The notes under the pieces: generated by a model | Told to the model about the DNA's origin: nothing | Databases searched by the model: none | What the model saw: the letters and a program-made list of their open reading frames with translations, nothing else | From: an uncultured Planctomycetia bacterium | GTDB taxonomy: Bacteria; Omnitrophota; Gorgyraeia; 1-14-0-20-64-10 | Reading direction: 5' to 3' | Length of the DNA stretch: 29,189 bases | Assembly (NCBI GenBank): GCA_964553935.1 | Contig: CAZKNC010000001.1 | Location: 1-29,189 of the forward strand | In this document: piece after piece, positions 1 to 29,189 of the stretch | Layout: every line of letters starts with the position of its first letter | How positions within the stretch are numbered: the stretch's first letter is position 1 | Translations under genes and position numbers: made by a program

Positions 1-1869
<1,869 letters not shown>

Positions 1870-1932
1870 TAAAATAGAGTGAATGTAGTCAAAAGTCTGT
1901 GTTGCATATGATATACTTATGTTATGGATAGA

Positions 1933-3017: not shown

Positions 3018-3210
3018 TTATTTATAGAATTCCTTCCGCAGCGCTTCACATTTACCGTTCCACCTAACCCAAGCTAACCGCTCTAGATCCCGCTTGATCT
3101 AAATAGTAGACAGATGTATCCTATCTCCAGCAGAAGGTTGCTTCATGCCGAGTCCCATAAGAGTAAGTATAATTATATGTATAAATAACCATATATAGGG
3201 TATACTTTTT

Positions 3211-3718: not shown

Positions 3719-3727
3719 CATCAAAGG

Positions 3728-3840
3728 ATGGTTATGAAACCAGTTCGAGCTAAGACGCATGAGGAGGTTTTAAAACCGCTCCTCAAGGATTCCAAGTTTC
3801 GAAAGGGTTACGAAGCGGATGCGCTTAAAAGAGCAGGCAA
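3728..3840 (+). pseudogene. Probable truncated N-terminal fragment of an HTH antitoxin/regulator
   Basis: MKPVRAKTHEEVLKPLLKDSKFRKGYEA resembles the helical N-terminus of HigA-like HTH proteins. After ~35 aa the frame runs through a REP-like hairpin and the csp promoter, and no HTH follows. Confidence 0.4.
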
Positions 3841-3907
3841 ACGAGATGGAGGTTCCTTATTAAGCCGACGAGTGTACGGCGGTTCCGCCCGGCTCGATGC
3901 GGCCGAA

Positions 3908-3937
3908 TTCGTCCTTCGACAAGCTCAGGACGAACGG
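3908..3937. repeat. REP-like palindromic element TTCGTCCTTCGACAAGCTCAGGACGAACGG
   Basis: Arms TTCGTCCT (3908-3915) and AGGACGAA (3927-3934). The core CTTCGACAAGCTCAG matches a widespread intergenic repeat type I recognise from many bacteria; only one copy in this window. Confidence 0.6.
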
Positions 3938-3961
3938 TTGGGAAGGAAGGCGAGAAACTCC

Positions 3962-3990
3962 TTGACAGGGGGCGGAGGAGAGGGTACTCT
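3962..3990 (+). promoter_or_regulatory. Sigma70-type promoter for the cold-shock gene
   Basis: TTGACA (3962-3967), 17-nt spacer, TACTCT (3985-3990). Implies a ~150-nt 5' UTR, as is typical for csp genes. Confidence 0.65.
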
Positions 3991-4051
3991 TACCTCTGTA
4001 GCACGAGTAAGTTTGAAACGTTGTAGGCAGGAAACGATAGGCAGGACCTAT

Positions 4052-4093
4052 ACGACTGCACGGCTCTTACTCAAGCGGCAGTCGTTTTTGTTT
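4052..4093 (+). terminator. Intrinsic terminator-like hairpin inside the predicted csp leader
   Basis: ACGACTGC (4052-4059) pairs with GCAGTCGT (4078-4085), followed by TTTTGTTT. Confidence 0.5.
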
Positions 4094-4146
4094 ATCCGCA
4101 CTCCTACATACGACACATAGAGGAAAGGAAGGTTAATCAATTCAGC

Positions 4147-4350
4147 ATGGCTAAAGGTACAGTGAAGTGGTTCAGCGACCAGAAGGGCTATGGGTTCGTC
4201 ACGCCGGAGAATGGCAAGGATGTTTTCGTCCATTTCTCCGCGATTCAGGGAGAAGGTTTCAAGACCCTGCGCGAGGGCGAAGCGGTGGAGTTTGACATCA
4301 CCACCGGCCCCAAGGGAGAGCAGGCTTCGAACGTGAGGCGGGTCTCCTAA
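4147..4350 (+). CDS. cspA: Cold-shock protein (CspA family)
   Basis: GTVKWF, RNP1 KGYGFV, RNP2 VFVHF and [10 protein letters not shown]; 67 aa. The exact paralog is not assignable. Confidence 0.97.
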
Positions 4351-4393
4351 GGTCGAAAACGCGTCAAGCGCGTTCTGACCACGGGTTTTCCAG

Positions 4394-4428
4394 CGGGCTC
4401 GGGAGTCATCCCGGGCCCGTTTTGCTTT
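4394..4428 (+). terminator. Rho-independent terminator after csp, facing the convergent DUF502 gene
   Basis: CGGGCTCGGGA-gtca-TCCCGGGCCCG stem followed by TTTTGCTTTT. Confidence 0.8.
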
Positions 4429-4438
4429 TGGAGGGGGC

Positions 4439-5074
4439 CTAGAGCGACTTGCTGCGGGAGAGAGCGGCCAGGGAAGGAGTGACCACCCCGCCGGAAACGA
4501 CCAGTTTCAGCGCTTGCTCGGTAGACATTTCCAACGGGATGACGTCGTTGGGTGGTGCGAAGATGATGGGACCGCTCCAGGGAGAGGGCGGGGTGGGGAT
4601 GAGGATGGTCAGCAGTCTTCCACCGATGGCGGGTACCTCCGATTCCCCTGTGACGAACCCGATCGAATACAGCCCCGGCCGCGGATAGACCACCAGCACC
4701 ACACGGCTGATTTTCGTCTGGGATTCGCCTTCTTTGGGGAAGAGGAACTGCGTGAGTTGTTTGATCGCGGGGTAAATTTTTCCAGCCACTGGAATCCGGG
4801 TCACCCACATGTCCACGGTCGGAAAAAAAAGCTTCCCGGCCAAATGGGTGGAGACGTAGCCGACCAGCACCAGGATGACCACCGTCAGGATCAATCCCAG
4901 CCCCGGGATCGTGAAGCCCAGATAGCGGCCCAGCGTTTTCCCCAGGATTCCATCGGAGAACTGAAAGAGTTTCATGACCAGATAAACGGTCACTGTGATG
5001 GGGAAAAGCGTCGCCAAACCCGCGACCAGATAACGGCGTAAGCTGTGCCGAAAACGAACGGAAAGGGAACTCAT
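4439..5074 (-). CDS. DUF502-family membrane protein
   Basis: Two N-terminal TM helices, RIPVAGKIYPAIKQL, VVLVVYPRPGLYSIGFVT and PTPPSPWSG (variant of PTTPNPTSG). Confidence 0.88.
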   Translation of the reverse strand: MSSLSVRFRHSLRRYLVAGLATLFPITVTVYLVMKLFQFSDGILGKTLGRYLGFTIPGLGLILTVVILVLVGYVSTHLAGKLFFPTVDMWVTRIPVAGKIYPAIKQLTQFLFPKEGESQTKISRVVLVVYPRPGLYSIGFVTGESEVPAIGGRLLTILIPTPPSPWSGPIIFAPPNDVIPLEMSTEQALKLVVSGGVVTPSLAALSRSKSL

Positions 5075-5141
5075 GCTACGCCCATGTTATCCGGACAGCC
5101 GGGGCGCGTCAACCGCCGGCTTTTGATAGGATAGTGGTGAA

Positions 5142-5753
5142 ATGGACGCCTTCCTGGAGCTGTTCTCAAAACTGCATGAGATCGACGCCCTTATTCGATG
5201 GGGCGGCTACACGCTGCTGTTCGCGATCGTTTTCGCCGAGACGGGCCTGCTCATCGGGTTTTTCCTGCCGGGGGATTCGCTTCTGCTGACGGCCGGCCTG
5301 CTGGCCTCGGTGGAAGGCAGTCCCTTGGCGATCGGGCCGCTGTTGGCGGTCTTGAGTGTTGCGGCGGTGCTGGGCGACAGCACCGGGTATGGGATCGGCG
5401 CTTACGTCGGACCCCGCATCTTCAATCGGGAGGAATCCCGATTTTTCCATCGCAAACATCTGTTTCGTGCCCAGCGTTTCTATGAAAAATACGGTGTTAA
5501 AACGATTGTGCTGGCCCGGTTCGCGCCGATCGTCCGGACGTTCGCGCCCACGCTGGCCGGAGTGGGGAAGATGCATTATCCAACGTTCCTCGCGTTCAAT
5601 CTGGTCGGCGGCGTGGCCTGGGTCTGTTCGATGACGCTGGCCGGCTATGCGCTGGGGACGATCATTCCCGACGGCCGCCGTTATTTCCCCTGGATCGTCG
5701 GGGCGGTGATCCTGCTGTCTTTGCTGGCGCTTAAGGCCTGGAAAGACGAATGA
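5142..5753 (+). CDS. dedA: DedA/VTT-domain membrane protein
   Basis: FAETGLLIGFFLPGDSLL, GDSTGYGIG and ARFAPIVRTFAP motifs. Confidence 0.93.
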   Translation: MDAFLELFSKLHEIDALIRWGGYTLLFAIVFAETGLLIGFFLPGDSLLLTAGLLASVEGSPLAIGPLLAVLSVAAVLGDSTGYGIGAYVGPRIFNREESRFFHRKHLFRAQRFYEKYGVKTIVLARFAPIVRTFAPTLAGVGKMHYPTFLAFNLVGGVAWVCSMTLAGYALGTIIPDGRRYFPWIVGAVILLSLLALKAWKDE

Positions 5754-7093
5754 GCGGGATTAAAAGAAGCCTCTCGATCTCCTGGAAAGAAGGGATCCCC
5801 GCTTCGGCCATGCTGGGCATTCTGGATTATTACTTGGTTCCTTATGGGCTGTTCCTGGGGGCCAGCACGCGGGGAATCGGGTTTTTGGTGGCGCTGCCGC
5901 AGCTGCTGGCTTCCGCGGCTCAATTAGCGGCGGTCGAGCTGGTGCGGCGGGTGGGGAGCCGGCTCCGGTTTGTTGTTCAAATGGCCTCGGTTCAGGCGGC
6001 TCTGCTGATCCCGATGGCGGCCCTGGCGCTGGTGACCGGGCCGAACCGAGTCGCCGCGCTGGTGGCGCTGGCGATCCTGTTCCGCGTGGTGAACAACCTG
6101 ATCGGCACGGCCTGGGGAAGTCTGACCAGCGAGTACCTGCCGGCTGAAAAGCGGGGATCTTATTTCGGATGGCGGTCACAGGTGGTGGGGATCGCCTCAC
6201 TCATCGGGGTGGGGGTGGGCGGCGTGCTGCTGGCCCGGATGGAAACCGTCTCTCCGGCGCTGGGTTTTTTCCTGCTTTTTTTACTGGCCGCGTTGCTGCG
6301 GTTTGTTTCTGCCGGTTTTCTGGCGATGATGACCGACCTGCCGATGTCCAGGCCGCCGGGATCGGATTTCACGTTCGTCATGTTCCTGCGCCGGTTCCGG
6401 AAGAGCAATTTCGTGAAATTCGTCCTGTACGTTTCGGCGATCATCTTTTCCACGCATCTGGCGGCTCCCTATTTCAACGTCTACATGCTTCGGGATCTCG
6501 GCTGGAACTACTTCACGTACATGGTCGTGCATCTGGCGGCGGTTTTTGCGGGGTTGGTCGCCATCCCGATCTGGGGCCGGCACGCCGATGTGGTGGGAAA
6601 CGTCCGGATCCTCAAAACGGTCGGCTGGCTGGTTCCTTTGATCCCGTTTCTGTGGCTGGTCTCCAGCAGCGTGGCCTACATTTTCGCGGTGGAACTGTTC
6701 GCCGGGTTCTGCTGGGCCGGCTTCACGCTCTGCTCCACGAATTTCATTTACGACGCTGTCGCGCCGGAAAAACGGGTGCGCTGTCTGGGCTATTTCAACC
6801 TGTTCCAGGGGCTGGCGATCTTTCTGGGCGCTTTGCTGGGCGGTTTTATCGCCGATCGCCTGCCGCCGCTCAAGGGGTATCCCATCCTGACGCTGTTCGT
6901 GATTTCCGGCCTGCTTCGGCTCGCGTCGCATCTGGCGCTGGCGGGACAGTTCCGTGAGGTCCGGGTGGAAGCGCGGCCAGTGTCCAGCGTACGGCTCTTC
7001 TTCAGCGTGGTGGGGATCCGGCCGGTGGTCGGGCAGGACACCGAATGGGGAGTATTCCCGTTGACGAGAAAACTGCGGCGGCGGGCCTGGTGA
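5750..7093 (+). CDS. Major facilitator superfamily transporter, substrate unknown
   Basis: About 12 hydrophobic segments in two halves, WGSLTSEYLPAEKRGSYFGWR and WGRHADVVG loop motifs; ATGA overlap with dedA. Confidence 0.88.
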   Translation: MSGIKRSLSISWKEGIPASAMLGILDYYLVPYGLFLGASTRGIGFLVALPQLLASAAQLAAVELVRRVGSRLRFVVQMASVQAALLIPMAALALVTGPNRVAALVALAILFRVVNNLIGTAWGSLTSEYLPAEKRGSYFGWRSQVVGIASLIGVGVGGVLLARMETVSPALGFFLLFLLAALLRFVSAGFLAMMTDLPMSRPPGSDFTFVMFLRRFRKSNFVKFVLYVSAIIFSTHLAAPYFNVYMLRDLGWNYFTYMVVHLAAVFAGLVAIPIWGRHADVVGNVRILKTVGWLVPLIPFLWLVSSSVAYIFAVELFAGFCWAGFTLCSTNFIYDAVAPEKRVRCLGYFNLFQGLAIFLGALLGGFIADRLPPLKGYPILTLFVISGLLRLASHLALAGQFREVRVEARPVSSVRLFFSVVGIRPVVGQDTEWGVFPLTRKLRRRAW

Positions 7094-7821
7094 AAAAATA
7101 CAAGTGGTTCTGGGCCGCTCTGCTGGCCGCGGCCGCGCTGTTTCTCGCGCGCGGCTGGATCGTCCGGTCAACTCTGGCCGCCGGCGTTCGCGCGGTAACC
7201 GGGCTGGGCCTGCAGATCCGGCGGCTGGACATCTCTTTGCTGAAGGGGCGGGTCTCCGCGCGGGAAGTCCAGCTGCTGAATCCCAGGGGATTCGACGAGC
7301 CGGTGATGGCCGATCTGCCGGAGCTGACGGTGGAAGCGGACCTGCCGGCCTTCTTGCGCGGGAAAACGCACCTGCAGCAGCTGACGGTGGACCTGCGCCG
7401 GTTCAACGTGGTGAAAGACGCCGACGGCCGCCTCAACCTGGACGCGTTGGCCTCCGTCCAGAAAGCCAAAGAAAAGAAACCGGCTCCGAAACCGAAGCGG
7501 GAGTTCCGAATCGACCGTCTGCATTTGAAGGTCGGGACCGTGACCTACCGGGACGATTCAGGGGGCAAACCAGGTCCAGTGCGGGAATTCCCGGTGAATT
7601 TGGATGAGCGGCATGAAAACATCACCGATCCGGCCGCGCTGGGCGCTCTGATCGTGTCTCGCGCGCTGTTGAAGACGACGGTGGCTCGATTGGCGCAGTT
7701 TGATCTTGCCGTGCTTCAGGACTATGCGGGGACGCTTCAGCAGGCGGGGGAGAAGGCGCTGGAAACGGTCGGCGGCGCGGTGGAGGGGGCCTTGGACAGG
7801 TTCCGGAAGGTGATAGAATAA
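7090..7821 (+). CDS. Short AsmA-like protein with an N-terminal membrane anchor
   Basis: GTG 7090 overlaps the MFS stop (GTGA). One TM helix is followed by beta-rich segments (LQIRRLDISLLKGRVS, LNPRGF, LNLDAL) typical of AsmA N-terminal domains. Confidence 0.7.
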   Translation: MKKYKWFWAALLAAAALFLARGWIVRSTLAAGVRAVTGLGLQIRRLDISLLKGRVSAREVQLLNPRGFDEPVMADLPELTVEADLPAFLRGKTHLQQLTVDLRRFNVVKDADGRLNLDALASVQKAKEKKPAPKPKREFRIDRLHLKVGTVTYRDDSGGKPGPVREFPVNLDERHENITDPAALGALIVSRALLKTTVARLAQFDLAVLQDYAGTLQQAGEKALETVGGAVEGALDRFRKVIE

Positions 7822-18437: not shown

Positions 18438-21400
18438 ATGAGTCTGACCCGCGCCAGCATTCGCCGGCCCGTCACGACCGTCATGATGGTCCTGGGGGTC
18501 GTCCTCCTGGGCGTCATCGCCTGGACCCGTCTGCCCCAAGAACTGTACCCGCCGATCAATTACCCGCAGTTGACCGTCGTGACCCGCTACAAGGACGCGG
18601 CTCCCGAAGAGATCGAACTGCTGGTCACCAAACCGATTGAAGAAGTGGTCGGCACGGTCTCGGGTCTGCGCCGGATCAGCTCCATCTCGAAGGAAGAGAT
18701 GTCCCTCGTCATTGCGGAATTCAACTGGGATACGCAGATGGATTTCGCGGCGCTGGGCGTGCGGGAGAAAATCGACCTGATTAAAGAACGCCTCCCTCGT
18801 GGTTCGGAAGACCCGGTGGTCATCAAATACAACCCCTTCGAACTTCCGGTGATCGTGCTGAATCTTTCCGGAGAACGCCATCCCCACGAACTTCTGACCC
18901 TCGCCCGCAAGCAGGTCAAGATTGAGCTGGAAAAACTGGAAGGGGTCGCTGTGGTCAACCTTTCCGGCGGGCTGGAGCGGGAGATTCTGATCGAGGTGGA
19001 CCAGGGCCGCCTGCAGGCGGCCGGCCTGCCTATTTCCCACGTGGTTGACGGACTTTCCAAAGCCAACCTCCATTATCCGGCCGGCACCATCAAGGAGGCG
19101 TTCTACGAATACCTCATCCGGACGATGGGGGAATTCTCGCTGGTTCGGGAAATCCCCGGCATCGCCGTGGGCGTGGATGAGAAAAAGGACGACCCGGAGA
19201 AGGAGTTCCAGAAACGGATGGAACGGCAGGGCCCTCTGGAGAAAGAAAAGGGGCTGGGCCCCCAACAGCGCCTCATCCTGCTCAAGGATGTGGCGACCGT
19301 CAAAGACACTTATCGCGATCGGGATTCCATTTCCCGCTACAAAGGCCGGGACAATGTCAGTTTGAGCATCCAAAAGCAGTCGGGCGCCAATACCCTTCAG
19401 TTGGCCAAGCAGGTGAAAGAGGCCCTCGGCCGGATCCGCCAATCGCTTCCTCCCGGCATTGAGCTCAGCGTGGCTTACGATCAATCGCTGGCCATCGAGA
19501 GCTCGGTCAACGGGGTTTTGATCGAAGCCCTGCAGGGCGGCGCGCTCGCGTTCGGGATTTTATTCCTGATCCTGGGCAATCTCTGGTCCGCGATCAATGT
19601 GTCGTTCGCGATTCCGATTTCGATCATGGCGACGATCGCTCTCATGTATTTCAGCGGGATCACCATCAACGTGATCTCCATGGGCGGGCTCGCTCTGGGG
19701 ATCGGTATGCTGGTCGACGCCGGCATCGTGGTCGTGGAAAACGTTTCCCGTTACCGAGAGAAAGGAGTTCCTCCCCGCGAAGCGGCCATCGAAGGAACCG
19801 CGGAGGTGGCCAGCGCGATCGGCGGGTCGGTCTTGACCACCATCGTGGTTTTCCTGCCGATGGTGTTCGTGGTCGGCATCGCCGGCCAGTTGTTCAAAGA
19901 GCTGGCCTATACCGTCACCTTCGCTCTGCTGGCCAGCTGGGTGGTTTCCCTGACGCTGACCGCATTGTTTGCTTCCAAGTACCGCGGTTCAGGACGGAGC
20001 CGTTCTCCCATCGAGCCGATTCTGCAGCGGCTCTACCGGGCGGACCAACGCGCGGTCCAGTGGTTTCTGCGCAACCGGATGGTGGGCGCAGCGGCGATGG
20101 TCGTCCTGCTGGTGGCGTCCCTCGTGGTTCTCAAAGGGCTGGACCGCGAGGTATTGCCGCGAGTCGATCAGGGCCAATTCATTCTCCGTGTGGATCTTCC
20201 CCCCGGCACCCGCTTGGACGTCACGAATCGGGTGGCGACCCGGGTGGAGAGGGTCCTGCAGGCCATGCCGGAGGTGCGGGACCTGACGGTCACGATCGGT
20301 TCCTCCAAAGAAAAAAGAGCCGAAGAGCTTCTGGAAACCCTGGGTTCTCACCAATCTCAGATCCTGGTGAATCTTTTTGGAAAACCCCAGCGCACCCGGA
20401 AAACGGCGGAAGTCGTCCAGGAGCTGAAGGAGACCTTGGGCCGGGAACCTCTGGAAGGAGCCGAAATCGAGTACCTTCTTCAAGAGTCGATTTTTAAATC
20501 AGCTTTCCTGGCCGGGGCGCCGGTGGTGGTGGAGGTCAAAGGGACGGACCTGGGCCGGTTGGAGACGCTGGCCCTCGGTATGCGCAAGGAGATGGAAGCG
20601 GTTCCCGGATTGTACGGCGTAAAAACCAGTTTGATCCCGCCCTCTCCCGAAACCAAAGTCCGAGTTTTGAAAGACCGGGCCGCTACCTATCATCTTTCGG
20701 TCAGCGACGTGGCGCTCACCGCGCAGACCGCCTTCAAGGGATTCATCGCCACCAAATTCAAGGAGGAAGGCAAAGAAATCGACGTGCGGGTCCGCCTGCG
20801 GGAGCAGGATCGCCGAGATATGAGCCGGATCCGGCAGATGCTGGTTCACTCTCCGCTGGAGATCGACGTGCCGCTGGCGGAAGTGGCTTACCTCTCTCTC
20901 GGAAAAGGTCCGACGGAAATCCGGCGCATGGATCAACAAAGGACCGTGCTGGTTTCCGGGCAGGTTGCGCGCAGGGCGCTCAGCGACGTCCTGAAAGATG
21001 TCGAAGCTGTTTTGAAGAAAGACAAGGTTCCCACCGGCTACAGCGTGGCGATCACCGGAGAACGGGAAGAGATGCAGGAATCGTTTCGGTCCCTGATCTT
21101 CGCGCTGGCTCTCTCCATCCTCCTGGTTTACATGGTGATGGCCTCGGAGCTTGAATCGCTCTGGCAGCCGTTTCTCATTATGGTGACGATGCCGATGTCT
21201 CTGATCGGCGTGGCCCTTGGATTGTACGTGACGCACACGCCCATCAGCGTCATGGTGGGGCTGGGGATGATCGTCCTGGGCGGTGTGGTGGTGGATAACG
21301 GGATCGTGCTGGTGGAATTTATCAATGAACTGCGCCGGGAGGGAATGGGTTTGGAAGAGGCGGTGGCGGAGGCCAGCCGGATCCGGTTAAGACCGATCCT

Positions 21401-22124
21401 GCTCACCGCCGGGACCACGATTTTAGGACTGCTGCCCATGACGCTGGGCCTCCAACAAGGGGCCGAGCTTCAGATTCCCATGGGCGTCACGATGATGTGG
21501 GGTCTGGCCGTTTCGACGTTCTTGACGCTGATTTATCTTCCGACCGTTTACGTGATCGGCGCGCGATTCTTTGAGAGACTAGAGCGGGTGTTCCAGGTTT
21601 CACCCATGCCTGCGCCGGCGCTGCAGATGGCCGGTCCGCTTCCATCTGTTGAGACGGTTCCAGAACCGTATCAGGAGCCGCCTCCGAAAGAGCCGCCGAT
21701 GCCGGTTGAGCCGCTGCCGGCTCCCCCGGAGCCCTCTCCTGAACTTCCGGAAATTCCGGAGGGCTACGGGAGCGAGGAAGTTGTGACCGATCGCTCTGAT
21801 TTTCCGATTATTCTCCCGGGAGAAATCTTGCTTCCTCCGGAACCGCCCGTCGAGGAGGCCTTCGCCCCGCCGACGTTGCCGGAACCTTTATTTGAGGAGC
21901 CGCCGGAAGAAACCGTTCACCCTGCTAAAGTTCCACTCAACCCGCGCCAGGAAAAACTGCTGGAACATCTGAAAAGCCACGGGCGAATTTCCCGCAAGGA
22001 ATATGTCGAGCTGACAGGAGCTTCCGTTCCGACGGCCGCTCGCGACCTGAAGGAGCTGGTCGACCAGGGATGGGTCCGAGGCGTCGGTCCGCTGGCGCGG
22101 GGAAGATACTATGTCCTTGCCTGA
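18438..22124 (+). CDS. RND permease (AcrB/MdtB-like) with a C-terminal Pro/Glu-rich linker and winged-HTH
   Basis: RRPVTT, TM4 GMLVDAGIVVVEN, TM10 GVVVDNGIVLVE and RLRPILLT. The tail from ~21604 is Pro/Glu-rich, and LNPRQEKLL...DLKELVDQGWVRGVG begins at 21936. Confidence 0.93.
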   Translation: MSLTRASIRRPVTTVMMVLGVVLLGVIAWTRLPQELYPPINYPQLTVVTRYKDAAPEEIELLVTKPIEEVVGTVSGLRRISSISKEEMSLVIAEFNWDTQMDFAALGVREKIDLIKERLPRGSEDPVVIKYNPFELPVIVLNLSGERHPHELLTLARKQVKIELEKLEGVAVVNLSGGLEREILIEVDQGRLQAAGLPISHVVDGLSKANLHYPAGTIKEAFYEYLIRTMGEFSLVREIPGIAVGVDEKKDDPEKEFQKRMERQGPLEKEKGLGPQQRLILLKDVATVKDTYRDRDSISRYKGRDNVSLSIQKQSGANTLQLAKQVKEALGRIRQSLPPGIELSVAYDQSLAIESSVNGVLIEALQGGALAFGILFLILGNLWSAINVSFAIPISIMATIALMYFSGITINVISMGGLALGIGMLVDAGIVVVENVSRYREKGVPPREAAIEGTAEVASAIGGSVLTTIVVFLPMVFVVGIAGQLFKELAYTVTFALLASWVVSLTLTALFASKYRGSGRSRSPIEPILQRLYRADQRAVQWFLRNRMVGAAAMVVLLVASLVVLKGLDREVLPRVDQGQFILRVDLPPGTRLDVTNRVATRVERVLQAMPEVRDLTVTIGSSKEKRAEELLETLGSHQSQILVNLFGKPQRTRKTAEVVQELKETLGREPLEGAEIEYLLQESIFKSAFLAGAPVVVEVKGTDLGRLETLALGMRKEMEAVPGLYGVKTSLIPPSPETKVRVLKDRAATYHLSVSDVALTAQTAFKGFIATKFKEEGKEIDVRVRLREQDRRDMSRIRQMLVHSPLEIDVPLAEVAYLSLGKGPTEIRRMDQQRTVLVSGQVARRALSDVLKDVEAVLKKDKVPTGYSVAITGEREEMQESFRSLIFALALSILLVYMVMASELESLWQPFLIMVTMPMSLIGVALGLYVTHTPISVMVGLGMIVLGGVVVDNGIVLVEFINELRREGMGLEEAVAEASRIRLRPILLTAGTTILGLLPMTLGLQQGAELQIPMGVTMMWGLAVSTFLTLIYLPTVYVIGARFFERLERVFQVSPMPAPALQMAGPLPSVETVPEPYQEPPPKEPPMPVEPLPAPPEPSPELPEIPEGYGSEEVVTDRSDFPIILPGEILLPPEPPVEEAFAPPTLPEPLFEEPPEETVHPAKVPLNPRQEKLLEHLKSHGRISRKEYVELTGASVPTAARDLKELVDQGWVRGVGPLARGRYYVLA

Positions 22125-25100
22125 TGCTTCCATCCGCCGTCCGGTTACGGTCAGCATGGTTTGTCTGGCCCTGGCGGTCCTCGGCGGGATCTCGCTAAGC
22201 CGCCTGCCGATCGAGCTGTACCCCAACTTCAGTTTCGGCGACATCTCCATCATCATCAACATCCGCGGGGGTATGCCGCCCGAGGAGGTTGAAAACCAGG
22301 TGACCCGGCCCGTCGAAGACAACGTGGGAGACGTCAGCCACCTCAAGGATATGATCTCGATTTCCGAGGAAGGCCGCTCCCGCGTGGTGCTGACCTTCGA
22401 GCCGGGCACCGACATGGATTTCGCCGCCCTGGAGGTGAGGGAAAAGTTCTCGAAAGTCCGTTCGAAGCTTCCCAAAGAGATCGAAAAACCGATCATCGCG
22501 AAATTCGAGCAGGAAGACGTGCCGGTCCTGATCCTCGCGGTCACCGCGCCGGATTACACACCGGAGATGCTGCGCCGCCTCGTGGACGAGGAGATCAAAG
22601 ACCGGATCATGCGGGTGGAGGGGGTGGCCAACGTCGACGTCGGAGGGGGGCGGGAGAGGAAGATTCTCGTCGAGATCAATCTGGAAAAGCTCCAGGCATT
22701 CCGCCTGCCGGTGGACCGGGTCACCCGGCTCTTGAGCGTGAGCAATCTCAATATGCTGACCGGAGAGATGGACCGTTCCCGCAGCAAGTATCTGATTCGG
22801 GCCATCGGGGAGTTCGAATCCATCCGGGAAATCGAGGAGCTCGGAATCGCCGTTACCCCCTCCCGTTCGGTGATCCGCCTCAAGGATGTGGCGGTCGTGA
22901 AAGATTCGTTTCTCGAGGCCACAAGCTACGCCCGGGTCAACGCGCTGCCGGTGGTCTCTCTCTACATTCAGAAGGAGACGACCTCCAACACGGTGCAGGT
23001 GGTCGGCCGGGTGATGAAGGTCCTGGACCAGTTCAAGCAGGATCCCCGTTTGCCGAAGGAGCTTCGATTCATCGTGACCCACGATCAGTCCGTGCAGATC
23101 GTTCGGGCCATTGAACTGGTGGGATCGGCTCTCATCAGCGGCGGCACGCTGGCGATCCTGGTGCTGGGGGCTTTCTTTTCCACCCATTGGATTCCGCGGT
23201 TTTTATTCATTCCGTTGGCCGCCGCGGTGACCGCGCTGGCGGTCGCCACATACCGGTTTGGGGGCATTCCGGTCCACACGATCAACGGGCTGGTCAACGG
23301 TCTTCTGGCGGTGCTGCTGCTGACGGCGATCTTGTGGAAGCATCTGCGCCTGACTTTGATCGCCGCCATCGCTATTCCCGTGGCCACCATGATCACGTTC
23401 GGGTTCATGTTCTTTCTGAATCTGCTGGCCAAGAACGTCGGTTTCATGAGTTTGACGCTCAACGTGATGACGCTGGGCGGCCTGGCGCTGGGCGTGGGGA
23501 TGCTGGTGGATAACGCGGTCGTGGTCATCGACAACGTCGTCAAGCGCCGCGCGAAGGGCGAGAGCCCGCGGGCGGCGGCCGGGGAAGGAGCCGCCGAGAT
23601 GCTGCTGGCGATCGCGGCTTCGACCTTAACCACCGTCATCGTTTTCCTTCCGCTGGTGTTCATCAACAAAGAGATCCGGATTCTGTACATCGGTTTCGCG
23701 CTCACGATCTGTTTTTCCCTGCTGGCTTCGCTGGTGGTGGCCCTCTCGGTGGTGCCGCTCATGGCGTCCCGGATTTCTTTTCCGGTGGTGACGGCCGCTC
23801 CTTCCGGACGGGGCCGCGGGCTGAAGCTGAAGGAACGCTACCGCGGATTCGTGATCGGTGTTCTGCGCTGGCGCTGGGCGGTGGCGCTGTGCGTGTTTTT
23901 CCTGGCCGCGGCCGGATTTCAGATCTACCGGTCGATCCCGAAGGAGTTTTTAGGGACCGCCGAGGCCGAAGATTTCACGGTGTTCGTGGAGCTTCCCAGC
24001 GGCGCGAAGCTGGAAATCTCCGACGACGCGGTCGCCAAAATCGAGAAGATCCTGAAAGACGTTCCGGAGATCAAGTCGGTTTCCTCCCGCGTGGAGAAAT
24101 CCTCGTCCAAGATTTACGTCAAGCTGGTCCCGCTGGCCGAGCGATCCCGCTCAACCAAGGACGTGATTGATTCCCTGCGGCCTCCGGTCGAAGAGGTGGA
24201 GCGAGGATTCCGGGAAGCGTTCGTCTACTTTGAAGAGCCGCACGAGGTGGAGTCGAACGAGGTGATCCTGGAGATCTACGGGTGGGACTATGAGGTCTTA
24301 AACCAGCTGGCCGTGGAAATGCTTAAGAGGATGCAGGCGGTGCCCGGCTTGACGGATCTCAAGATCCGCTGGCGGAGGGGAAGGCCGGAATGGCTGGTTC
24401 GTGTGGACAAGATTAAAGCCGCCCGCTATGGGCTGTCGGTGGAGGAGGTCTCCCAGTCCCTTCACGCGCAGATGCGGGGTTTGCGGGCCACGCTGTATCA
24501 CACCGAGTCCAAGGAGGTTGAAGTCGTAACCCGGCTGGAAGAGGCCGACCGCGCCACGCTGGACAAGCTGCGCCGGATCACCTTCACGCTGCCCAGCCGG
24601 GAAGTCATCTTCTTGGAGCAGGTGGCGAAGCTGGAACCGGCCATCGGCCCCTCCAAGATCTGGCGCAAGAACAAACAGCGAATGATCCAGGTCAGCGCCA
24701 ACCGCGGGCGATACGCGTTCGGGGAAGCCGCGCAGAAGGTGTACGGCGCCATTCATGAGATGCCTTTCCCCGAAGATTACTACTGGCGGTTCGGGTCCAA
24801 TTACCAGAAACTGCTTCAAAACCAGAAAGAGCTTGCTCTGGCGCTCGTTCTTTCGGTGCTGCTCATTTTCCTGGTTTTGGCTTCTCTTTTTGAGTCCCTG
24901 ATCCAGCCCTTTATCGTGATGGTTGTTGTGCCTCTGGCGGCCTTTGGAGCTTTCCTGACGCTCCGATTGGCCCATCAAGCCCTTAATGTCGGAGCTTTAA
25001 TGGGGTTGATCCTTCTGGGCGGCGTGGTGGTGAACAACGCGATCATCCTGGTGGATGAAGTGAACCGTCTCCTAGGCAACGGCTATCGGGTTCGAAGGGC

Positions 25101-25374
25101 GGCGGTTTCGGCCGCGATCAGCCGGGTTCGGCCGATCGCTGTCACTTCTTTTACGACCATCCTGGGGCTGCTTCCGCTGGCGATGAGCCGGACTGAAGAA
25201 TCCAGTCTCTGGGCACCGATGGCTTTGGTGGTTATCGGTGGGATGACCGTATCAACTTTCTTAACCCCTATCGTCGTCCCGTCTCTCTACCTGGTTTTAG
25301 ATGATCTTAAACGGATTACCCATCTGATACGGTTTAAAAAGAAGCCAAACGCTTTGCCTGTAACAGTATCATAA
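22111..25374 (+). CDS. Second RND permease (AcrB/MdtC-like) with an extra hydrophobic insertion after TM2
   Basis: RRPVTV, GMLVDNAVVVIDN, GVVVNNAIILVD and RVRPIAVT; 14-nt overlap with the first permease. Confidence 0.93.
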   Translation: MSLPDASIRRPVTVSMVCLALAVLGGISLSRLPIELYPNFSFGDISIIINIRGGMPPEEVENQVTRPVEDNVGDVSHLKDMISISEEGRSRVVLTFEPGTDMDFAALEVREKFSKVRSKLPKEIEKPIIAKFEQEDVPVLILAVTAPDYTPEMLRRLVDEEIKDRIMRVEGVANVDVGGGRERKILVEINLEKLQAFRLPVDRVTRLLSVSNLNMLTGEMDRSRSKYLIRAIGEFESIREIEELGIAVTPSRSVIRLKDVAVVKDSFLEATSYARVNALPVVSLYIQKETTSNTVQVVGRVMKVLDQFKQDPRLPKELRFIVTHDQSVQIVRAIELVGSALISGGTLAILVLGAFFSTHWIPRFLFIPLAAAVTALAVATYRFGGIPVHTINGLVNGLLAVLLLTAILWKHLRLTLIAAIAIPVATMITFGFMFFLNLLAKNVGFMSLTLNVMTLGGLALGVGMLVDNAVVVIDNVVKRRAKGESPRAAAGEGAAEMLLAIAASTLTTVIVFLPLVFINKEIRILYIGFALTICFSLLASLVVALSVVPLMASRISFPVVTAAPSGRGRGLKLKERYRGFVIGVLRWRWAVALCVFFLAAAGFQIYRSIPKEFLGTAEAEDFTVFVELPSGAKLEISDDAVAKIEKILKDVPEIKSVSSRVEKSSSKIYVKLVPLAERSRSTKDVIDSLRPPVEEVERGFREAFVYFEEPHEVESNEVILEIYGWDYEVLNQLAVEMLKRMQAVPGLTDLKIRWRRGRPEWLVRVDKIKAARYGLSVEEVSQSLHAQMRGLRATLYHTESKEVEVVTRLEEADRATLDKLRRITFTLPSREVIFLEQVAKLEPAIGPSKIWRKNKQRMIQVSANRGRYAFGEAAQKVYGAIHEMPFPEDYYWRFGSNYQKLLQNQKELALALVLSVLLIFLVLASLFESLIQPFIVMVVVPLAAFGAFLTLRLAHQALNVGALMGLILLGGVVVNNAIILVDEVNRLLGNGYRVRRAAVSAAISRVRPIAVTSFTTILGLLPLAMSRTEESSLWAPMALVVIGGMTVSTFLTPIVVPSLYLVLDDLKRITHLIRFKKKPNALPVTVS

Positions 25375-25709: not shown

Positions 25710-25725
25710 TTAGAAGTTCTACTCC

Positions 25726-25821
25726 CCGATAAAGGCAAACTCGCCGTGAGGCGAGGGCGCAAAGCCACGGATCCCGGATTCTTTAGTATTTTAGAGAATG
25801 GCGGGACAGCCGGGTTGCCGA
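25726..25821 (+). ncRNA. Cyclic di-GMP-I (GEMM) riboswitch aptamer
   Basis: AAAGGCAAAC, P2 stem CTCGCC-GTGA-GGCGAG with a GNRA loop, GGCGCAAAGCCACGG, an extended P3, and GACAGCCGGGTTGCCGA. All match the GEMM-I consensus as I know it. Confidence 0.88.
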
Positions 25822-25863
25822 CTAAAGGATAAAACCAGAAGGAACGGATGAGTCGACAGCCCG

Positions 25864-28800
25864 GTGAATAATTATCGCCACTTTTATAGGCACCATTCTT
25901 CGGTGAAAGAAAGTTCGCCGGAGGTGGAGGGCGCGATCCTGGAATGGAACGCGCCTCGCCGTCGACCTATTCTGCGTTCCGTCGCTTCGCTGACCTGCTT
26001 TGCTTTCGTCATTACCCAGCTTCCGATCCGCCCGGCCTTGGCCGTCGCTCCCCAGGAAGTCGTCACTTTGGGGAACCTCAGCAACATGACCAACGTTGCC
26101 AACCTCGCCACCTTGAATGAGCGCCGCCAATCTCTGCTGAACCGGCTGGAGCGGGAGCGGAATATTCAGGCCAGTGTGGAGGCCGGCTGGCTGACGGCGA
26201 ACGCCGGGGTCGCGCACAACCTTCAGACGCTGAACATCGACATTTCCCGGGCGCGCGAAGCGATCGAGCGGACCGGAAGCCAGGGCGCCTCAAGGGTTCA
26301 GGAGTTGGCCGGTGTGGTGGCCTCTCCCGCGACCACCGGCACGCTGGAATTCAACTACATGCCGGTTCGCAACACCGCCGGCGCCCCGGCCGGCCGCGAA
26401 TGGATGAAGATCTATTTCCGCAACAATCTGGCCAGCCGTGTTCTGGGAGAATGGGTTTCCTCCGCCGGCGGCGGTTTCCTGCGCGATACGTCCAGCATGA
26501 AGTACAACAGCAACCGGCTGCTCCAATCCTACGAGGCCGTCGAATACCGGCAGATTCCAGGCATGCTGGGCGGACGGCTGACTTTGAGGACCATCCGATG
26601 GACCGGCAACTGGACCTCCGATTCAAAATTTTACGCCAGCACGGAGACGGTTGCGGTGCGGCAGCTGCTGGACGAGCGGATTGAAACCACCACGTACAAC
26701 ACCTGGACCCAGGCCGACATCGACCGCTTGCTGACCAAGCTGGCCGAAGTGGAAAGCAAGGTCACCTCGGCCGCCGAGGTGGCTTGGGCGGTGGCCATGC
26801 GCAAGGAGCTGTCGGAAGGAGCGATCGCGGACGGCAAGACCACCCAATTCACCGGGGTTACGGAGCGGTTCTATGAACAGCATGATCGGAACCGCCCGCT
26901 GGCCTGGCGGCAGATCACCACCGATCCCACGGGTGTCACGGAATCGCACGTGACGGTCACCTACATGGGTCCCAAGGACAACAAGCTGTCGAACTATCTG
27001 GAAGAGGGCGTCCGAAAATCCAACCTGATCACCCAGGACGATTACGAACATTACCAGGCCTGGCTGGCCCAGGTGACCGCGGAAGGGACTTTGAGCGCCG
27101 AGCAGTTGACGGCGCTGAAGGCCGCCATGGACCCCATCAAGCCGGGGCAGACGACTGAGACCTTCTTCACCACGGAGCGGACGTATTTCGATTACACCAA
27201 GGACGGCGACCCGCTGCATTTCAAGGAACGGAGGGTTTCGTCCGATTCTTCGGTGGTGACCGAGACCGACTCCACGCTGGTCTACGATGAGCAGCGGCGG
27301 GTGGTTCGGCAGACGGATGTCCGCACCGAGAACGGCGCCTACACCTCCAAGGATATGGAAGCTTTTTGGGCGATGGTACTGGAGGCGGAGCGCAAGGGGA
27401 TCGATGCCGTGGTTGCCGAAGCGGAGTTCGCCGGGGATCTGCGCCGGAAGCTGGAGACCGGAGAGCTCTCCGCCGGGTCGGCCTTCAGCCGGACGGTCGG
27501 GGTGGTGCGCGAGAGTTTCTTGTACAACGAAATGCTTCAGCCGGTGGAGTGGCTTCAAACCACGACGACCGGCGGCACGAAACTGGTCGAGCATTATTTT
27601 GCCTATCACAACGACGCGCAGGGACGGAACCTGGATCTGCTGATCTTATCCGATGAGGAGACCGTCTACACCGCTGAGGATCAGGAACAGCTGCGCCGGG
27701 AAGCGCGGGCGATTCTGAACGCATCGGATTCTAATGACGCGGACCGAGAAGCGGCCCGCGAGCTGCTCCGCCAGCTGAACAGCGGAGATTTTCCAGCCGT
27801 CTTCCGGCGGTCGAGCGTCCGCTACCGCGGCGAGATCGTTTACAACGCGGCCGGGCTACCGATCCAGTACACCGAATATTCCACCTCCAACGCGGACCAG
27901 CTCCTGACCGTGACCGAAGCTCAAGGCCTTCAGTACGACACCAATGGACGGGAGCTTTCCGGTCTTCGGATCACCCATCGGACGGGAGTCGGCACGCGGA
28001 CGGTTTACCGGCTTCCGGACGGGGCGGAGCTGACTCCTTCCATGCTGGAGCAGATGCTGAGGACCCATTCCAGCAGCGGTGACCGGGCGACTCTTCAGGA
28101 GTTGATCGATGCCGGCTTGATCCGAGCTGTCGGCGCTCAGGACAACCCGTTGACCGAAGAGCAGATTGAACAGATCCTGCGCGAGAATCCGATGACGACG
28201 GACGGCGAACCGCGGCCCATGACGCTGCAGGAAGCGATGACGGCGAACTTGCTGGTCCTCTCCGGCTCCGGCGGCGTCTTGCTGGACGAGGCGGCGGTTG
28301 TCCAACTGCTCCGAGAGCAGTCCGTTGCTCCGAACATCGCGACGCTGGAAGAGATGATCGCGCTCGGGCTCATTCAAGCCGACAGCCAGGTTCCGTTCAT
28401 GCTGGATCAGAGAACCATCTCGTACCGGCATGAGACGGTTTATGACAGCATGGGCCGCATCGTCTCGGTGGTGGAAAACAGCGTCGATCCGTCCAGCGGC
28501 CTCCAGACGACGACCCGCTCTTACGGAACCACGTACGACTCCGAAGGAAGGCAATTTTCTTCTTTGACGGAGAGCCGACAGTACGGCAGAACCATCCGGA
28601 CCGGGCTTTTCTTTACCGGAACGGAGAACGAGCTCGATCCGATCGAGCTCCATACGGAGATCGAGCAGAACGGCCTTTCACTGAGCCAATTGATCGAGCA
28701 GGGCGTGATCGAGCGCCGCGAGGTCGACACGGAACTGGATCAGACCACCTTCAGCTACCGCCAGCAGACCCGCTATTACGATTCCAACCAGGTGGAGGGT

Positions 28801-29189
28801 TTCACCGACATCGTCAACACGCTGGGTTTCGGCAGCGATAACATCACGGAGCGGCAGGCGGCCTCGCTGATCCGCTTCAACGACGCGGGCCAGCAGGTGA
28901 GCCAGCTGCTGGTGAGCACCCGCATCGGCACGGACACGCGCACGGTCCACAAATTTGACGGTCGGGACCTCACCTATCTGGATGAGGAGTTCCAGGAAGC
29001 GCTTCATGAAGCCGGCGGCATGAAGCAGCTGATGCGCAGCGGCCGGATTACCGTGGAACATAGGCCGACCGTGGTCAATACCCGGACCTCCACATTCCGC
29101 AGCCACGTGGAGTACGACCGGTCCACCGGTTTCCTCAAAAACCAGGCTGACTTCTCCAGCGGAGACCTTAACCACGGCGTCAATCGGGC
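25864..29189 (+). CDS. Very large exported protein with YD-like/helical modules, 3'-partial (absent from the ORF track); start uncertain (GTG 25864, 25903 or 25924, or CTG 25939)
   Basis: Manual translation of frame 1 finds no stop from 25852 to the window end (more than 1080 codons from any candidate start). Signal-peptide-like RRRPILRSVASLTCFAFVITQLPIRPALA, then recurrent YD-x-x-GR motifs. Confidence 0.9.
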   Translation, partial: MNNYRHFYRHHSSVKESSPEVEGAILEWNAPRRRPILRSVASLTCFAFVITQLPIRPALAVAPQEVVTLGNLSNMTNVANLATLNERRQSLLNRLERERNIQASVEAGWLTANAGVAHNLQTLNIDISRAREAIERTGSQGASRVQELAGVVASPATTGTLEFNYMPVRNTAGAPAGREWMKIYFRNNLASRVLGEWVSSAGGGFLRDTSSMKYNSNRLLQSYEAVEYRQIPGMLGGRLTLRTIRWTGNWTSDSKFYASTETVAVRQLLDERIETTTYNTWTQADIDRLLTKLAEVESKVTSAAEVAWAVAMRKELSEGAIADGKTTQFTGVTERFYEQHDRNRPLAWRQITTDPTGVTESHVTVTYMGPKDNKLSNYLEEGVRKSNLITQDDYEHYQAWLAQVTAEGTLSAEQLTALKAAMDPIKPGQTTETFFTTERTYFDYTKDGDPLHFKERRVSSDSSVVTETDSTLVYDEQRRVVRQTDVRTENGAYTSKDMEAFWAMVLEAERKGIDAVVAEAEFAGDLRRKLETGELSAGSAFSRTVGVVRESFLYNEMLQPVEWLQTTTTGGTKLVEHYFAYHNDAQGRNLDLLILSDEETVYTAEDQEQLRREARAILNASDSNDADREAARELLRQLNSGDFPAVFRRSSVRYRGEIVYNAAGLPIQYTEYSTSNADQLLTVTEAQGLQYDTNGRELSGLRITHRTGVGTRTVYRLPDGAELTPSMLEQMLRTHSSSGDRATLQELIDAGLIRAVGAQDNPLTEEQIEQILRENPMTTDGEPRPMTLQEAMTANLLVLSGSGGVLLDEAAVVQLLREQSVAPNIATLEEMIALGLIQADSQVPFMLDQRTISYRHETVYDSMGRIVSVVENSVDPSSGLQTTTRSYGTTYDSEGRQFSSLTESRQYGRTIRTGLFFTGTENELDPIELHTEIEQNGLSLSQLIEQGVIERREVDTELDQTTFSYRQQTRYYDSNQVEGFTDIVNTLGFGSDNITERQAASLIRFNDAGQQVSQLLVSTRIGTDTRTVHKFDGRDLTYLDEEFQEALHEAGGMKQLMRSGRITVEHRPTVVNTRTSTFRSHVEYDRSTGFLKNQADFSSGDLNHGVNR

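What the first reader, a model, noticed from the sequence alone, without database searches (positions are those of the whole stretch)
26872..29189. Regular ~110-aa module: paired YD-like hairpins alternating with helical inserts
Aromatic-D/N motifs come in pairs about 30 aa apart: 26872/26962, 27193/27283, 27523/27604, 27841/27934, 28441/28534 and 28777/28876, with the next at 29113 (e.g. YDEQRR, YNAAGL, YDTNGR, YDSMGR, YDSEGR, FNDAGQ). Gaps between pairs are 77-81 aa, except one of 169 aa, and contain amphipathic helices. Classical RHS/teneurin YD shells are near-continuous beta repeats. A YD spiral decorated with periodic helical domains would be a distinct architecture.
Basis: partly seen in the sequence, partly recalled or inferred. 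Interest (0 to 1): 0.65.

Follow-up and report, generated by a model that had tools for sequence, protein, structure and literature searches.

The report
Beta-hairpin stalk with regular helical inserts
The repeat is real: the front of a roughly 4,200-residue exported protein of an uncultured Omnitrophota bacterium is built from ~110-residue modules, each with four beta-strands and two helices, but a very similar architecture was already predicted by computer for Omnitrophota giant proteins, so this looks like a new member rather than a new kind.

Summary
**Observation: confirmed.**
- All 13 motifs are in frame at the stated coordinates.
- Modules repeat every 106-112 aa, with one of 200 aa.
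- Profile-profile E-values between modules are 1e-8 to 1e-16.
- There are two flavours: type A (aa 323-645) and type B (aa 646-1069 and beyond).

**Structure.**
- AlphaFold2 with 12 homologues gives mean pLDDT 85 and pTM 0.73.
- Each module has four long antiparallel strands (two hairpins) followed by a two-helix insert.
- In 10 of the 13 motifs the aromatic residue ends a strand and the next 4-7 residues (mostly D/N-x-x-G-x) are the turn.

**Relation to RHS/YD proteins.**
- Foldseek ranks RHS toxin shells and teneurins first (E 1e-8), but TM-scores are only 0.07-0.12.
- No RHS/YD sequence model matches.
- No RHS core domain was found downstream.
- This is therefore an RHS-like sheet, not a demonstrable RHS member or cocoon.

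**Context.**
- The window ends inside the gene. It continues on contig C66.
- One relative has a complete 4,214-aa frame.
- The family is largely confined to one Omnitrophota family.
- A c-di-GMP riboswitch precedes the gene.

**Prior description.** West-Roberts et al. [quoted passage not shown]

**Verdict.** New member of a known kind. It is most likely a rigid stalk or tube scaffold.

The parts
25725..25823 (+). c-di-GMP-I-GGC riboswitch aptamer in the 5' leader of the gene (context)
   Evidence: Rfam RF03167 scores 69.7 bits against a gathering score of 59, E 2.4e-16. The same family is found upstream of 5 of 11 homologues.
25864..29187 (+). N-terminal 1108 aa of the large exported protein, cut by the contig end
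   Evidence: Open frame with no stop before the window end. Contig C66 overlaps the last 172 nt at 97% identity and continues the frame for 7.3 kb. Homologues continue with the same consensus after aa 1108. One relative has a complete 4214-aa frame.
25969..26043 (+). Hydrophobic signal or anchor segment (aa 36-60, ILRSVASLTCFAFVITQLPIRPALA), preceded by the conserved motif EGAILEWNAPRRRP
   Evidence: Read directly from the sequence. Conserved in all 12 homologues. Assignment as a signal peptide or membrane anchor is inferred.
26659..26829 (+). Module 0: a helical hairpin of the type A kind, preceded by a different beta part
   Evidence: hhalign of block 0 against type A module 2 gives 94.6% probability, E 6.6e-8, over 57 columns covering only the helical half.
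26830..27150 (+). Type A module 1 (aa 323-429): strands 332-341, 344-354, 357-367, 375-387; helices 391-407, 412-422
   Evidence: AF2 DSSP. hhalign to A2 and A3 gives 95% probability, E ~2e-8.
27151..27480 (+). Type A module 2 (aa 430-539): strands 430-444, 450-459, 465-474, 480-492; helices 495-510, 517-532
   Evidence: AF2 DSSP. hhalign results.
27481..27798 (+). Type A module 3 (aa 540-645): strands 540-554, 559-569, 572-583, 589-601; helices 604-619, 625-640
   Evidence: AF2 DSSP. hhalign results.
27799..28398 (+). Type B module 1 (aa 646-845): four strands (646-660, 666-675, 681-691, 697-716) followed by three tandem helix-helix-short-strand mini-domains (aa ~725-837, nt 28036-28374)
   Evidence: AF2 DSSP. 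The dot-plot diagonal at offset 84 scores 52. The number of mini-domains varies from 1 to about 6 among homologues.
28399..28734 (+). Type B module 2 (aa 846-957): strands 838-860, 866-874, 881-891, 897-917; helices 926-936, 940-945
   Evidence: AF2 DSSP in two independent models. hhalign to B1 gives 98.7% probability, E 2.4e-16.
28735..29070 (+). Type B module 3 (aa 958-1069): strands 949-971, 977-987, 994-1005, 1011-1031; helices 1041-1050, 1053-1058
   Evidence: AF2 DSSP. hhalign gives 96.6-96.9% probability.
29071..29187 (+). Start of the next hairpin unit (aa 1070-1108; strands 1062-1084 and 1091-1100), cut by the contig end
   Evidence: AF2 DSSP. The sequence continues on C66.

Best explanation
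**What it is (shown).**
- The region is the membrane-proximal scaffold of a large exported protein. A homologue has a complete 4,214-aa frame.
- The protein is conserved in one family of Omnitrophota.
- At least seven tandem modules of about 110 aa each contribute a four-stranded antiparallel beta-meander. The meander consists of two hairpins whose turns carry an aromatic-D/N-x-x-G motif.
- Each module also has a two-helix insert in the connection from strand 4 to strand 1 of the next module.

**How the modules fit together (inferred from the model's secondary structure).**
- The beta parts of successive modules pair into one continuous, very polar sheet. Locally it resembles the strip that forms RHS and teneurin shells.
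- The helical hairpins and mini-domains sit outside this sheet, on the edge opposite the YD-type turns.

**What it does (inferred).**
- The array acts as a rigid stalk or open tube, not as a toxin cocoon.
- It holds the downstream ~3,000 aa away from the cell surface, towards a host or prey cell. That downstream part includes a DUF5722 domain (glycoside-hydrolase-like, my reading of that family).
- Synthesis is switched by c-di-GMP through the riboswitch in the leader.

**How it compares.** It is the same kind of structure as the "antiparallel beta-helix with exterior paired alpha-helices" predicted in Omnitrophota giant proteins.
For: **The repeat is significant.**

**The model is confident.**
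- AF2 model of aa 323-1108: mean pLDDT 85.4 and pTM 0.73, and no 10-residue block at a module junction falls below about 65.
- Fragment model of aa 846-1108: pLDDT 86.2, with the same elements.

**Indirect evidence that the sheet is continuous between modules.**
- Strands 4 and 1' in type B modules are 20-23 residues long. Strands 2 and 3 are only 9-12 residues, so the long strands must pair with each other across the module border.
- In the fragment that lacks the preceding module, residues 846-851 of strand 1 lose their strand state.

**The sheet is polar.** Strand residues are 30% hydrophobic, with T 15%, V 11% and R 10% the commonest.

**Closest solved folds.** Foldseek against the PDB ranks 4igl and 6h6g (RHS BC toxins) and 7ban and 9g2f (teneurins) first, at E 1e-8 to 1e-6.

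**Family context.**
- Homologues with frames of 3,000-4,500 aa occur in 18 of 19 other genomes of the same family.
- The riboswitch is present upstream.
- DUF5722 is found on the continuation contig at E 5.9e-40.

**Remote relatives.**
- The type B profile matches a 21,903-aa frame that holds aspartate-rich, calcium-binding-like repeats resembling dockerins (read by eye) in another Omnitrophota family: E 3.2e-6 by HMMER and 69.5% probability by hhalign.
- It also matches continuous hairpin-repeat proteins of Elusimicrobiota MAGs at 95% probability, E 4e-8.

**Prior description.** bioRxiv 10.1101/2023.11.21.568195.
Against: - No coordinates were available, so tube, spiral or flat-ribbon geometry is unmeasured.
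- The alignment behind the models has only 12 sequences from one family.
- Foldseek TM-scores to every solved structure are low: at most 0.12 for the whole model and at most 0.34 for the fragment, where the best matches are BamA barrels.
- Homology to the published tubule examples was not tested directly, because their sequences and models were not at hand.
- The stalk function, surface location and c-di-GMP response are all inferred. There is no expression or localisation evidence.
Confidence: 0.6

Rival explanations
1. It is a true but diverged RHS/YD cocoon that encapsulates and later releases a toxin domain, as in TcB/TcC, T6SS Rhs effectors and WapA.
For: - The hairpin turns carry Y-D-x-x-G-R motifs.
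- RHS shells and teneurins are the top Foldseek hits, with probability 0.99.
- PF05593 appears at E 0.26 in 2 of 12 family members.
- Unchecked earlier notes on relatives propose a polymorphic-toxin-like tail.
Against: - No PF05593 or TIGR01643 hit falls in the window protein even at E<=10, while PF05593 does ring above its cut-off on another contig (C192) of the same genome.
- hhalign of the module profiles against that C192 protein gives under 1% probability.
- No model of the RHS core domain matches in the continuation contig or in the complete 4,214-aa homologue.
- The array lies at the N-terminus with about 3,000 aa after it, not directly before a C-terminal toxin.
- TM-scores are 0.07-0.12.
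- A profile search of 1.84 billion proteins returned only 40 hits. None of the 8 distant ones scanned carries RHS_repeat.
Confidence: 0.08
2. The modules are independent small alpha/beta domains, arranged as beads on a string. Each would be a four-stranded sheet packed on its own two helices, and AlphaFold has over-regularised them into one continuous sheet.
For: - Each module has its own helical pair.
- Modules and mini-domains have duplicated independently.
- The alignment is shallow, with 12 sequences.
Against: - Strands of 20-23 residues flanked by partners of 9-12 residues cannot be satisfied within a single ~110-aa domain.
- There are no low-confidence linkers between modules, and pTM is 0.73 over 786 aa.
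- Strand 1 frays when the preceding module is removed.
Confidence: 0.15
3. It is a membrane-embedded beta-barrel or an outer-membrane insertion domain.
For: For the two-module fragment the best Foldseek matches are BamA/EspP barrels (E 0.01, TMq 0.33). TonB-dependent receptors follow the RHS hits for the full model.
Against: - Strand residues are only 30% hydrophobic, with T, V, R, E and S the five commonest residues.
- Regular soluble helical inserts interrupt the sheet.
- None of these matches reaches E<=0.001 at fragment level.
Confidence: 0.03

Closest known systems
"Antiparallel beta-helix" tubule with exterior paired alpha-helices, predicted in Omnitrophota giant proteins (West-Roberts et al. 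2023, bioRxiv 10.1101/2023.11.21.568195, Fig. 5)
   Same: - Same phylum, and both occur in long exported proteins.
[quoted passage not shown]
- The authors also likened theirs to RHS repeats.
- The type B module profile remotely matches a 21,903-aa frame holding dockerin-like repeats (read by eye).
- Both have a link to c-di-GMP: PilZ genes in the published cases, a riboswitch here.
   Different: - The published examples sit inside proteins of more than 30,000 aa and span about 1,500 aa. Here the array is the N-terminal ~1,100-1,300 aa of a ~4,200-aa protein.
- Two explicit module types and a Y-D/N-x-x-G turn motif are defined here.
- A hollow tubular shape could not be checked here.
- The published description is itself only a computer prediction.
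RHS / YD-repeat shells (TcB-TcC of ABC toxins, e.g. PDB 4igl, 6h6g; teneurins, e.g. 7ban)
   Same: - Polar antiparallel beta-hairpin strip with an aromatic-Asp-x-x-Gly turn.
- These are the best Foldseek matches, at E 1e-8.
   Different: - No match to PF05593 or TIGR01643, and no RHS core domain.
- Regular two-helix inserts every four strands.
- Strands of up to 23 residues.
- TM-scores of 0.07-0.12, and no evidence of a closed cocoon or of cargo.
Continuous YD-like hairpin-repeat proteins of Elusimicrobiota and Omnitrophota MAGs (e.g. MBI4397317.1, HOW28885.1), all annotated as hypothetical
   Same: The hairpin pair is homologous to the type B modules (hhalign 95%, E 4e-8; HMMER 1e-18 to 1e-12). 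They carry the same YDxxGRL and YNxLGQL turns.
   Different: They are near-continuous repeats of about 65-70 aa with only sporadic helical inserts. The window's family inserts helices after every second hairpin.

Membership tests
RHS / YD-repeat family (Pfam PF05593, NCBIfam TIGR01643) | Multiple matches to the RHS_repeat or YD_repeat models above the curated cut-off | tested here: not met
   - The window protein has no hit at E<=1 in Pfam or NCBIfam.
- A six-frame PF05593 scan of the whole genome at E<=10 gives nothing in 25864-29187. It gives three hits above cut-off on contig C192, which shows the test can work in this genome.
- 2 of 12 family members reach only E 0.26.
RHS / YD-repeat family | RHS-associated core domain (autoproteolytic) followed by a C-terminal toxin | tested here: not met
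   No RHS-type NCBIfam or Pfam model matches in the continuation contig C66 or in the complete 4,214-aa homologue. The gene's own C-terminus is not assembled.
RHS / YD-repeat family | Beta-hairpins with the conserved Tyr-Asp at the turn | tested here: met
   In 10 of the 13 motifs the aromatic residue is the last residue of strand 1 or 3, followed by a 4-7-residue turn, mostly D/N-x-x-G-x. 8 of the 13 aromatic positions are invariant in 12 homologues.
RHS / YD-repeat family | Closed spiral shell superposable on solved RHS or teneurin shells | tested here: inconclusive
   These are the top Foldseek hits (E 1.3e-8, probability 0.99), but with TMq 0.12, TMt 0.07 and rmsd 36 A. The two-module fragment gives 4igl at E 0.021 and TMq 0.25, behind BamA. 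No coordinates were available to measure closure.
Omnitrophota antiparallel beta-helix tubule (West-Roberts et al. 2023) | Long single-chain antiparallel sheet with regularly interspaced exterior paired alpha-helices | tested here: met
   DSSP of the pLDDT-85 model shows the pattern of four strands plus two helices repeated seven times without low-confidence linkers. That the helices are on the exterior is inferred, not measured.
Omnitrophota antiparallel beta-helix tubule (West-Roberts et al. 2023) | Hollow tubular overall shape | not testable with these tools
   The tools return no model coordinates. Only DSSP, pLDDT and Foldseek tables are available.
Omnitrophota antiparallel beta-helix tubule (West-Roberts et al. 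2023) | Sequence or structural homology to the published Archaeovorin-type or Dockerin-type examples | tested here: inconclusive
   The published sequences were not at hand. The type B profile hits a 21,903-aa frame holding dockerin-like repeats (read by eye) in another Omnitrophota family at E 3.2e-6 and 69.5% hhalign probability.

The most novel reading that the evidence does not exclude
- The hairpin repeat of this protein and its Elusimicrobiota and Omnitrophota relatives would be a separate superfamily of YD-like strips that no curated model captures.
- It would build open-ended, cargo-less tubes or stalks instead of closed toxin cocoons.
- In this Omnitrophota family the strip would have acquired a helical hairpin after every second beta-hairpin. 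This would act as an external brace or docking surface whose copy number (1 to about 6 at one site) tunes reach or binding.
- The whole device would be deployed on a c-di-GMP signal for contact with a host or prey cell.
Probability: 0.3. Interest if true: 0.6.

Novelty: new member of a known kind. Interest (0 to 1): 0.38.

Why it matters
- Omnitrophota are ultra-small, uncultured and probably host-dependent bacteria. How their very long proteins work is an open question.
- This family offers a compact and tractable example of the predicted "beta-helix with exterior helices". The array is about 1,100 aa, has sharply defined ~110-aa modules and gives a high-confidence model.
- A two- or three-module fragment could be expressed and solved. 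That would give the first experimental test of a fold so far known only from prediction.
- It would also clarify whether YD-type strips can form open scaffolds as well as toxin cocoons.
- The result shows that current RHS/YD sequence models miss a whole group of YD-like repeat proteins.

Tried and rejected
**Sequence searches that found nothing useful.**
- BLAST-level self-similarity and paralogue search. tblastn of the protein against its own genome finds only itself and the C66 overlap, so the repeats are too diverged for BLAST.
- The search for related loci in genome contigs with the single protein found no confirmed relative.
- The search for homologous proteins gave only 2 hits in each of two searches, because of its length window and word index.
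- A profile search of PDB sequences gave only a chance hit at E 0.92.
- Pfam and NCBIfam scans of the window protein, all 12 homologues, three distant relatives, the C66 continuation and the full-length homologue found no RHS/YD family at a meaningful E-value.
- hhalign of the module profiles against the canonical RHS-repeat protein on contig C192 gave under 1% probability.

**Structure searches that found nothing useful.**
- Foldseek against viral predicted structures gave nothing meaningful.
- Foldseek of a two-module fragment, meant to raise the TM-score to RHS shells, gave no hit at E<=0.001 and only generic curved beta-sheets.

**Practical limits.**
- Model coordinates are not exposed in the Python box, so pitch, radius and closure could not be measured.

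**Readings rejected.** A membrane barrel, and a classical toxin cocoon. See the rival explanations.
Full report
**1. What is at the coordinates**

The finding lies inside a single open frame, 25864-29187 on the + strand. It is 1108 aa long and has no stop before the window ends.

- The window is a whole contig (C1) of a fragmented metagenome-assembled genome of 340 contigs, 1.69 Mb and 88.9% completeness.
- Contig C66 overlaps the last 172 nt at 97% identity. It carries the frame on for its entire 7.3 kb, across two 10-N scaffold gaps, and is itself open at its end.
- The homologues continue after aa 1108 with the same consensus as C66, so C66 is the continuation.
- Relatives have open frames of 3,000-4,500 aa. 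One is complete at 4,214 aa.
- Database names of relatives ("Candidatus Omnitrophica bacterium") place the organism in Omnitrophota.

**2. The observation**

- All 13 motif coordinates are in frame and carry the quoted residues.
- The dipeptide count alone is unimpressive: 15 observed against 8 expected.
- The internal repeat is real. Four dot-plot diagonals score 47-52, beyond the maximum of 44 seen in 30 shuffles. The next-best diagonals cluster at offsets of 104-114 aa and their multiples.
- I aligned 11 homologues (41-53% identical to the window protein), cut the alignment into module blocks and compared the blocks by hhalign. This resolves two module types.

| Module type | Residues | Similarity between modules |
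|---|---|---|
| Type A | 323-429, 430-539, 540-645 | 95% probability, E ~1e-8, ~100 columns |
| Type B | 646-845, 846-957, 958-1069, and the start of a fourth | 97-99% probability, E 2e-16 to 5e-10 |
| A against B | hairpin part only | 75% probability at best, 41 columns |

- A partial "module 0" (aa 266-322) shares the type A helical hairpin, at 94.6% probability.
- 8 of the 13 aromatic positions are invariant in all 12 sequences.

**3. Structure**

- AlphaFold2 on the 12-sequence alignment of aa 323-1108 gave mean pLDDT 85.4 and pTM 0.73. No low-confidence linker separates the modules.
- A second model, of aa 846-1108 alone, gave pLDDT 86.2 with the same elements.
- Every module is strand-turn-strand-turn-strand-turn-strand followed by two helices.
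- Mapping DSSP onto the sequence shows that the aromatic residue ends strand 1 or strand 3. The next 4-7 residues form the turn (TKDGD, DEQRR, DAQGR, NAAGL, DTNGR, DSMGR, DSEGR, NDAGQ and others). Both YD-type turns therefore lie on one edge of the meander.
- The helical insert replaces the turn between strand 4 and strand 1 of the next module, on the opposite edge.
- In type A the helices are 11-17 residues long. In type B the insert is a mini-domain made of an 10-11-residue helix, a 6-residue helix and a short strand.
- The one long gap (module B1) holds three of these mini-domains. Homologues have from one to about six at that site.
- Strands 4 and 1' in type B are 20-23 residues long, while strands 2 and 3 are 9-12. 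The long strands must therefore pair with each other across the module border.
- Consistent with that, residues 846-851 lose their strand state in the fragment that lacks the preceding module. This is indirect evidence for one continuous sheet.
- The strands are very polar: 30% hydrophobic, with T, V, R, E and S the commonest residues.

**4. What it resembles**

- Foldseek of the 786-aa model against the PDB puts RHS BC-toxin shells (4igl, 6h6g) and teneurins (7ban, 9g2f) first, at E 1e-8 to 1e-6. TM-scores are only 0.07-0.12 and rmsd is about 36 A. TonB-dependent barrels follow.
- For the two-module fragment nothing reaches E<=0.001. The best matches are BamA barrels (TMq 0.33) and 4igl (E 0.02, TMq 0.25).
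- The similarity to RHS is therefore local, at the level of a curved antiparallel hairpin strip. It is not global.
- Sequence tests for RHS membership fail:
  - No PF05593 or TIGR01643 hit falls in the window protein.
  - A six-frame PF05593 scan of the genome at E<=10 gives nothing in the window, although it rings above cut-off on contig C192.
  - Only 2 of 12 family members reach even E 0.26.
  - No RHS core model matches in C66 or in the complete homologue.
  - hhalign against the C192 RHS-repeat protein gives under 1% probability.

**5. Relatives**

- A profile search of 1.84 billion representative proteins found only 40 at E<=0.001.
- The close ones are family members.
- The distant ones come from Elusimicrobiota and Omnitrophota MAGs and are all annotated as hypothetical. 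They match the type B hairpin part many times over.
- They are near-continuous ~65-70-aa two-hairpin repeats (YDxxGRL ... SDSPD..TT ... YNxLGQL) with sporadic helical inserts.
- Eight of them were scanned against Pfam at E<=0.01 without an RHS hit. Three of these were scanned again at E<=10 in Pfam and NCBIfam, again without an RHS hit.
- hhalign of the type B profile to one of them gives 95% probability, E 4e-8, over 249 columns.
- Within Omnitrophota, strong matches are confined to the window's own family (18 of 19 other genomes) and one genome of a sister family, plus a single genome in another class at E 6e-25.
- Weak matches (E 3e-6 to 4e-4) fall inside very long frames elsewhere in the phylum. 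One is a 21,903-aa frame that also holds aspartate-rich, calcium-binding-like repeats resembling dockerins, as read by eye.

**6. Prior description**

West-Roberts et al. (bioRxiv 10.1101/2023.11.21.568195) report AlphaFold2 predictions in both subtypes of Omnitrophota giant proteins. [quoted passage not shown] They explicitly liken these to RHS repeat proteins. Earlier notes of this scan on other genomes reached the same comparison. I treat those notes as leads only.

**7. Context and likely function**

- A c-di-GMP-I-GGC riboswitch (RF03167, 69.7 bits) sits 40 nt upstream of the frame. It recurs upstream of 5 of 11 homologues.
- The second RND permease gene lies immediately upstream in three other genera too.
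- The protein starts with a conserved basic motif and a hydrophobic segment (aa 36-60).
- Downstream of the array come about 230 aa of undecorated hairpins, proline-rich linkers and a DUF5722 domain at E 5.9e-40. By eye, Gly/Ala-rich hydrophobic segments and a peptidase-like stretch follow.
- My reading is that the array is a rigid stalk or open tube that projects these distal parts from the cell surface towards a host or prey cell, and that it is made on a c-di-GMP signal.
- The structure of the modules is shown, at prediction level. The continuity of the sheet is supported indirectly. The exterior position of the helices, the overall shape and the function are inferred.

**8. Verdict**

The alternation of hairpins and helices is real, and RHS and teneurin shells are the nearest solved folds. 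Membership of the RHS/YD family is not met, and the architecture has been described before by computer prediction.
- Novelty: a new member of a known kind.
- Useful additions made here are the precise module anatomy, the two module types, the position of the YD-type turn, the variable mini-domain copy number and the riboswitch control.

Noticed in passing
window 25725-25823: A c-di-GMP-I-GGC variant riboswitch (RF03167, 69.7 bits) lies 40 nt upstream of the frame. The same family lies upstream of 5 of 11 homologous genes (L008, L009, L010, L012, L013).
   Followed up: partly
window 29017-29189 and L015 (G000:C66) 1-7323: The window ends at an assembly break inside the gene. C66 overlaps by 172 nt with 5 mismatches, which suggests strain heterogeneity. 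It continues the frame across two 10-N gaps that shift the frame, and it is open at its own end.
   Followed up: yes
window 28036-28374 (aa 725-837): The helix-helix-short-strand mini-domain (LxxLLxxxS...ATLxELxxxGLI) is present three times here. In homologues it occurs from once (L010, L012, L013, L014) to about six times (L007), so it behaves as an independently duplicating unit. It gives weak, non-significant hits to winged-helix-type models (RAMA 0.0031, AbiEi 0.0016, GntR 0.13).
   Followed up: partly
window 22111-25374; L004 2-1096; L010 1-858; L013 4716-5204: The second RND permease gene lies immediately upstream of the large gene in three other genera as well (61-79% identity). The order pump, riboswitch, large gene is therefore conserved.
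   Followed up: partly
L015 (G000:C66) 2613-7322: The continuation carries a DUF5722 domain (E 5.9e-40). By eye it is followed by Gly/Ala-rich hydrophobic segments and a peptidase-like stretch (HLPDHWLTFLGV...). No Pfam C39 hit was obtained at E<=0.1.
   Followed up: partly
G000 contig C192 (3241 nt, minus strand): A separate open frame of at least 1080 aa holds two repeated blocks of unknown type, genuine RHS repeats above the Pfam cut-off, and motifs such as LLPADEATLRSLVESGTVEL that look like the helical mini-domain (hhalign E 0.06, not significant). It may belong to this or to another long protein.
   Followed up: partly
P0014, P0024, P0032 (Elusimicrobiota and Omnitrophota MAG proteins): These are long, near-continuous ~65-70-aa two-hairpin repeats (YDxxGRL ... 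SDSPD..TT ... YNxLGQL). No Pfam or NCBIfam model recognises them even at E<=10, so they appear to be an unmodelled YD-like repeat family.
   Followed up: partly
L025 (G086:C3:64000-83999): This is part of a 21,903-aa open frame in another Omnitrophota family. It mixes aspartate-rich, calcium-binding-like repeats resembling dockerins (read by eye) with the same hairpin repeats, and has at least one helical insert resembling the type B mini-domain (SLDEFKNVVDENGI).
   Followed up: partly
window 18438-22124: The first RND permease carries a C-terminal DeoR/winged-helix match (aa 1170-1213, E 2.7e-6). Another finding of this scan has already reported this.
   Followed up: no
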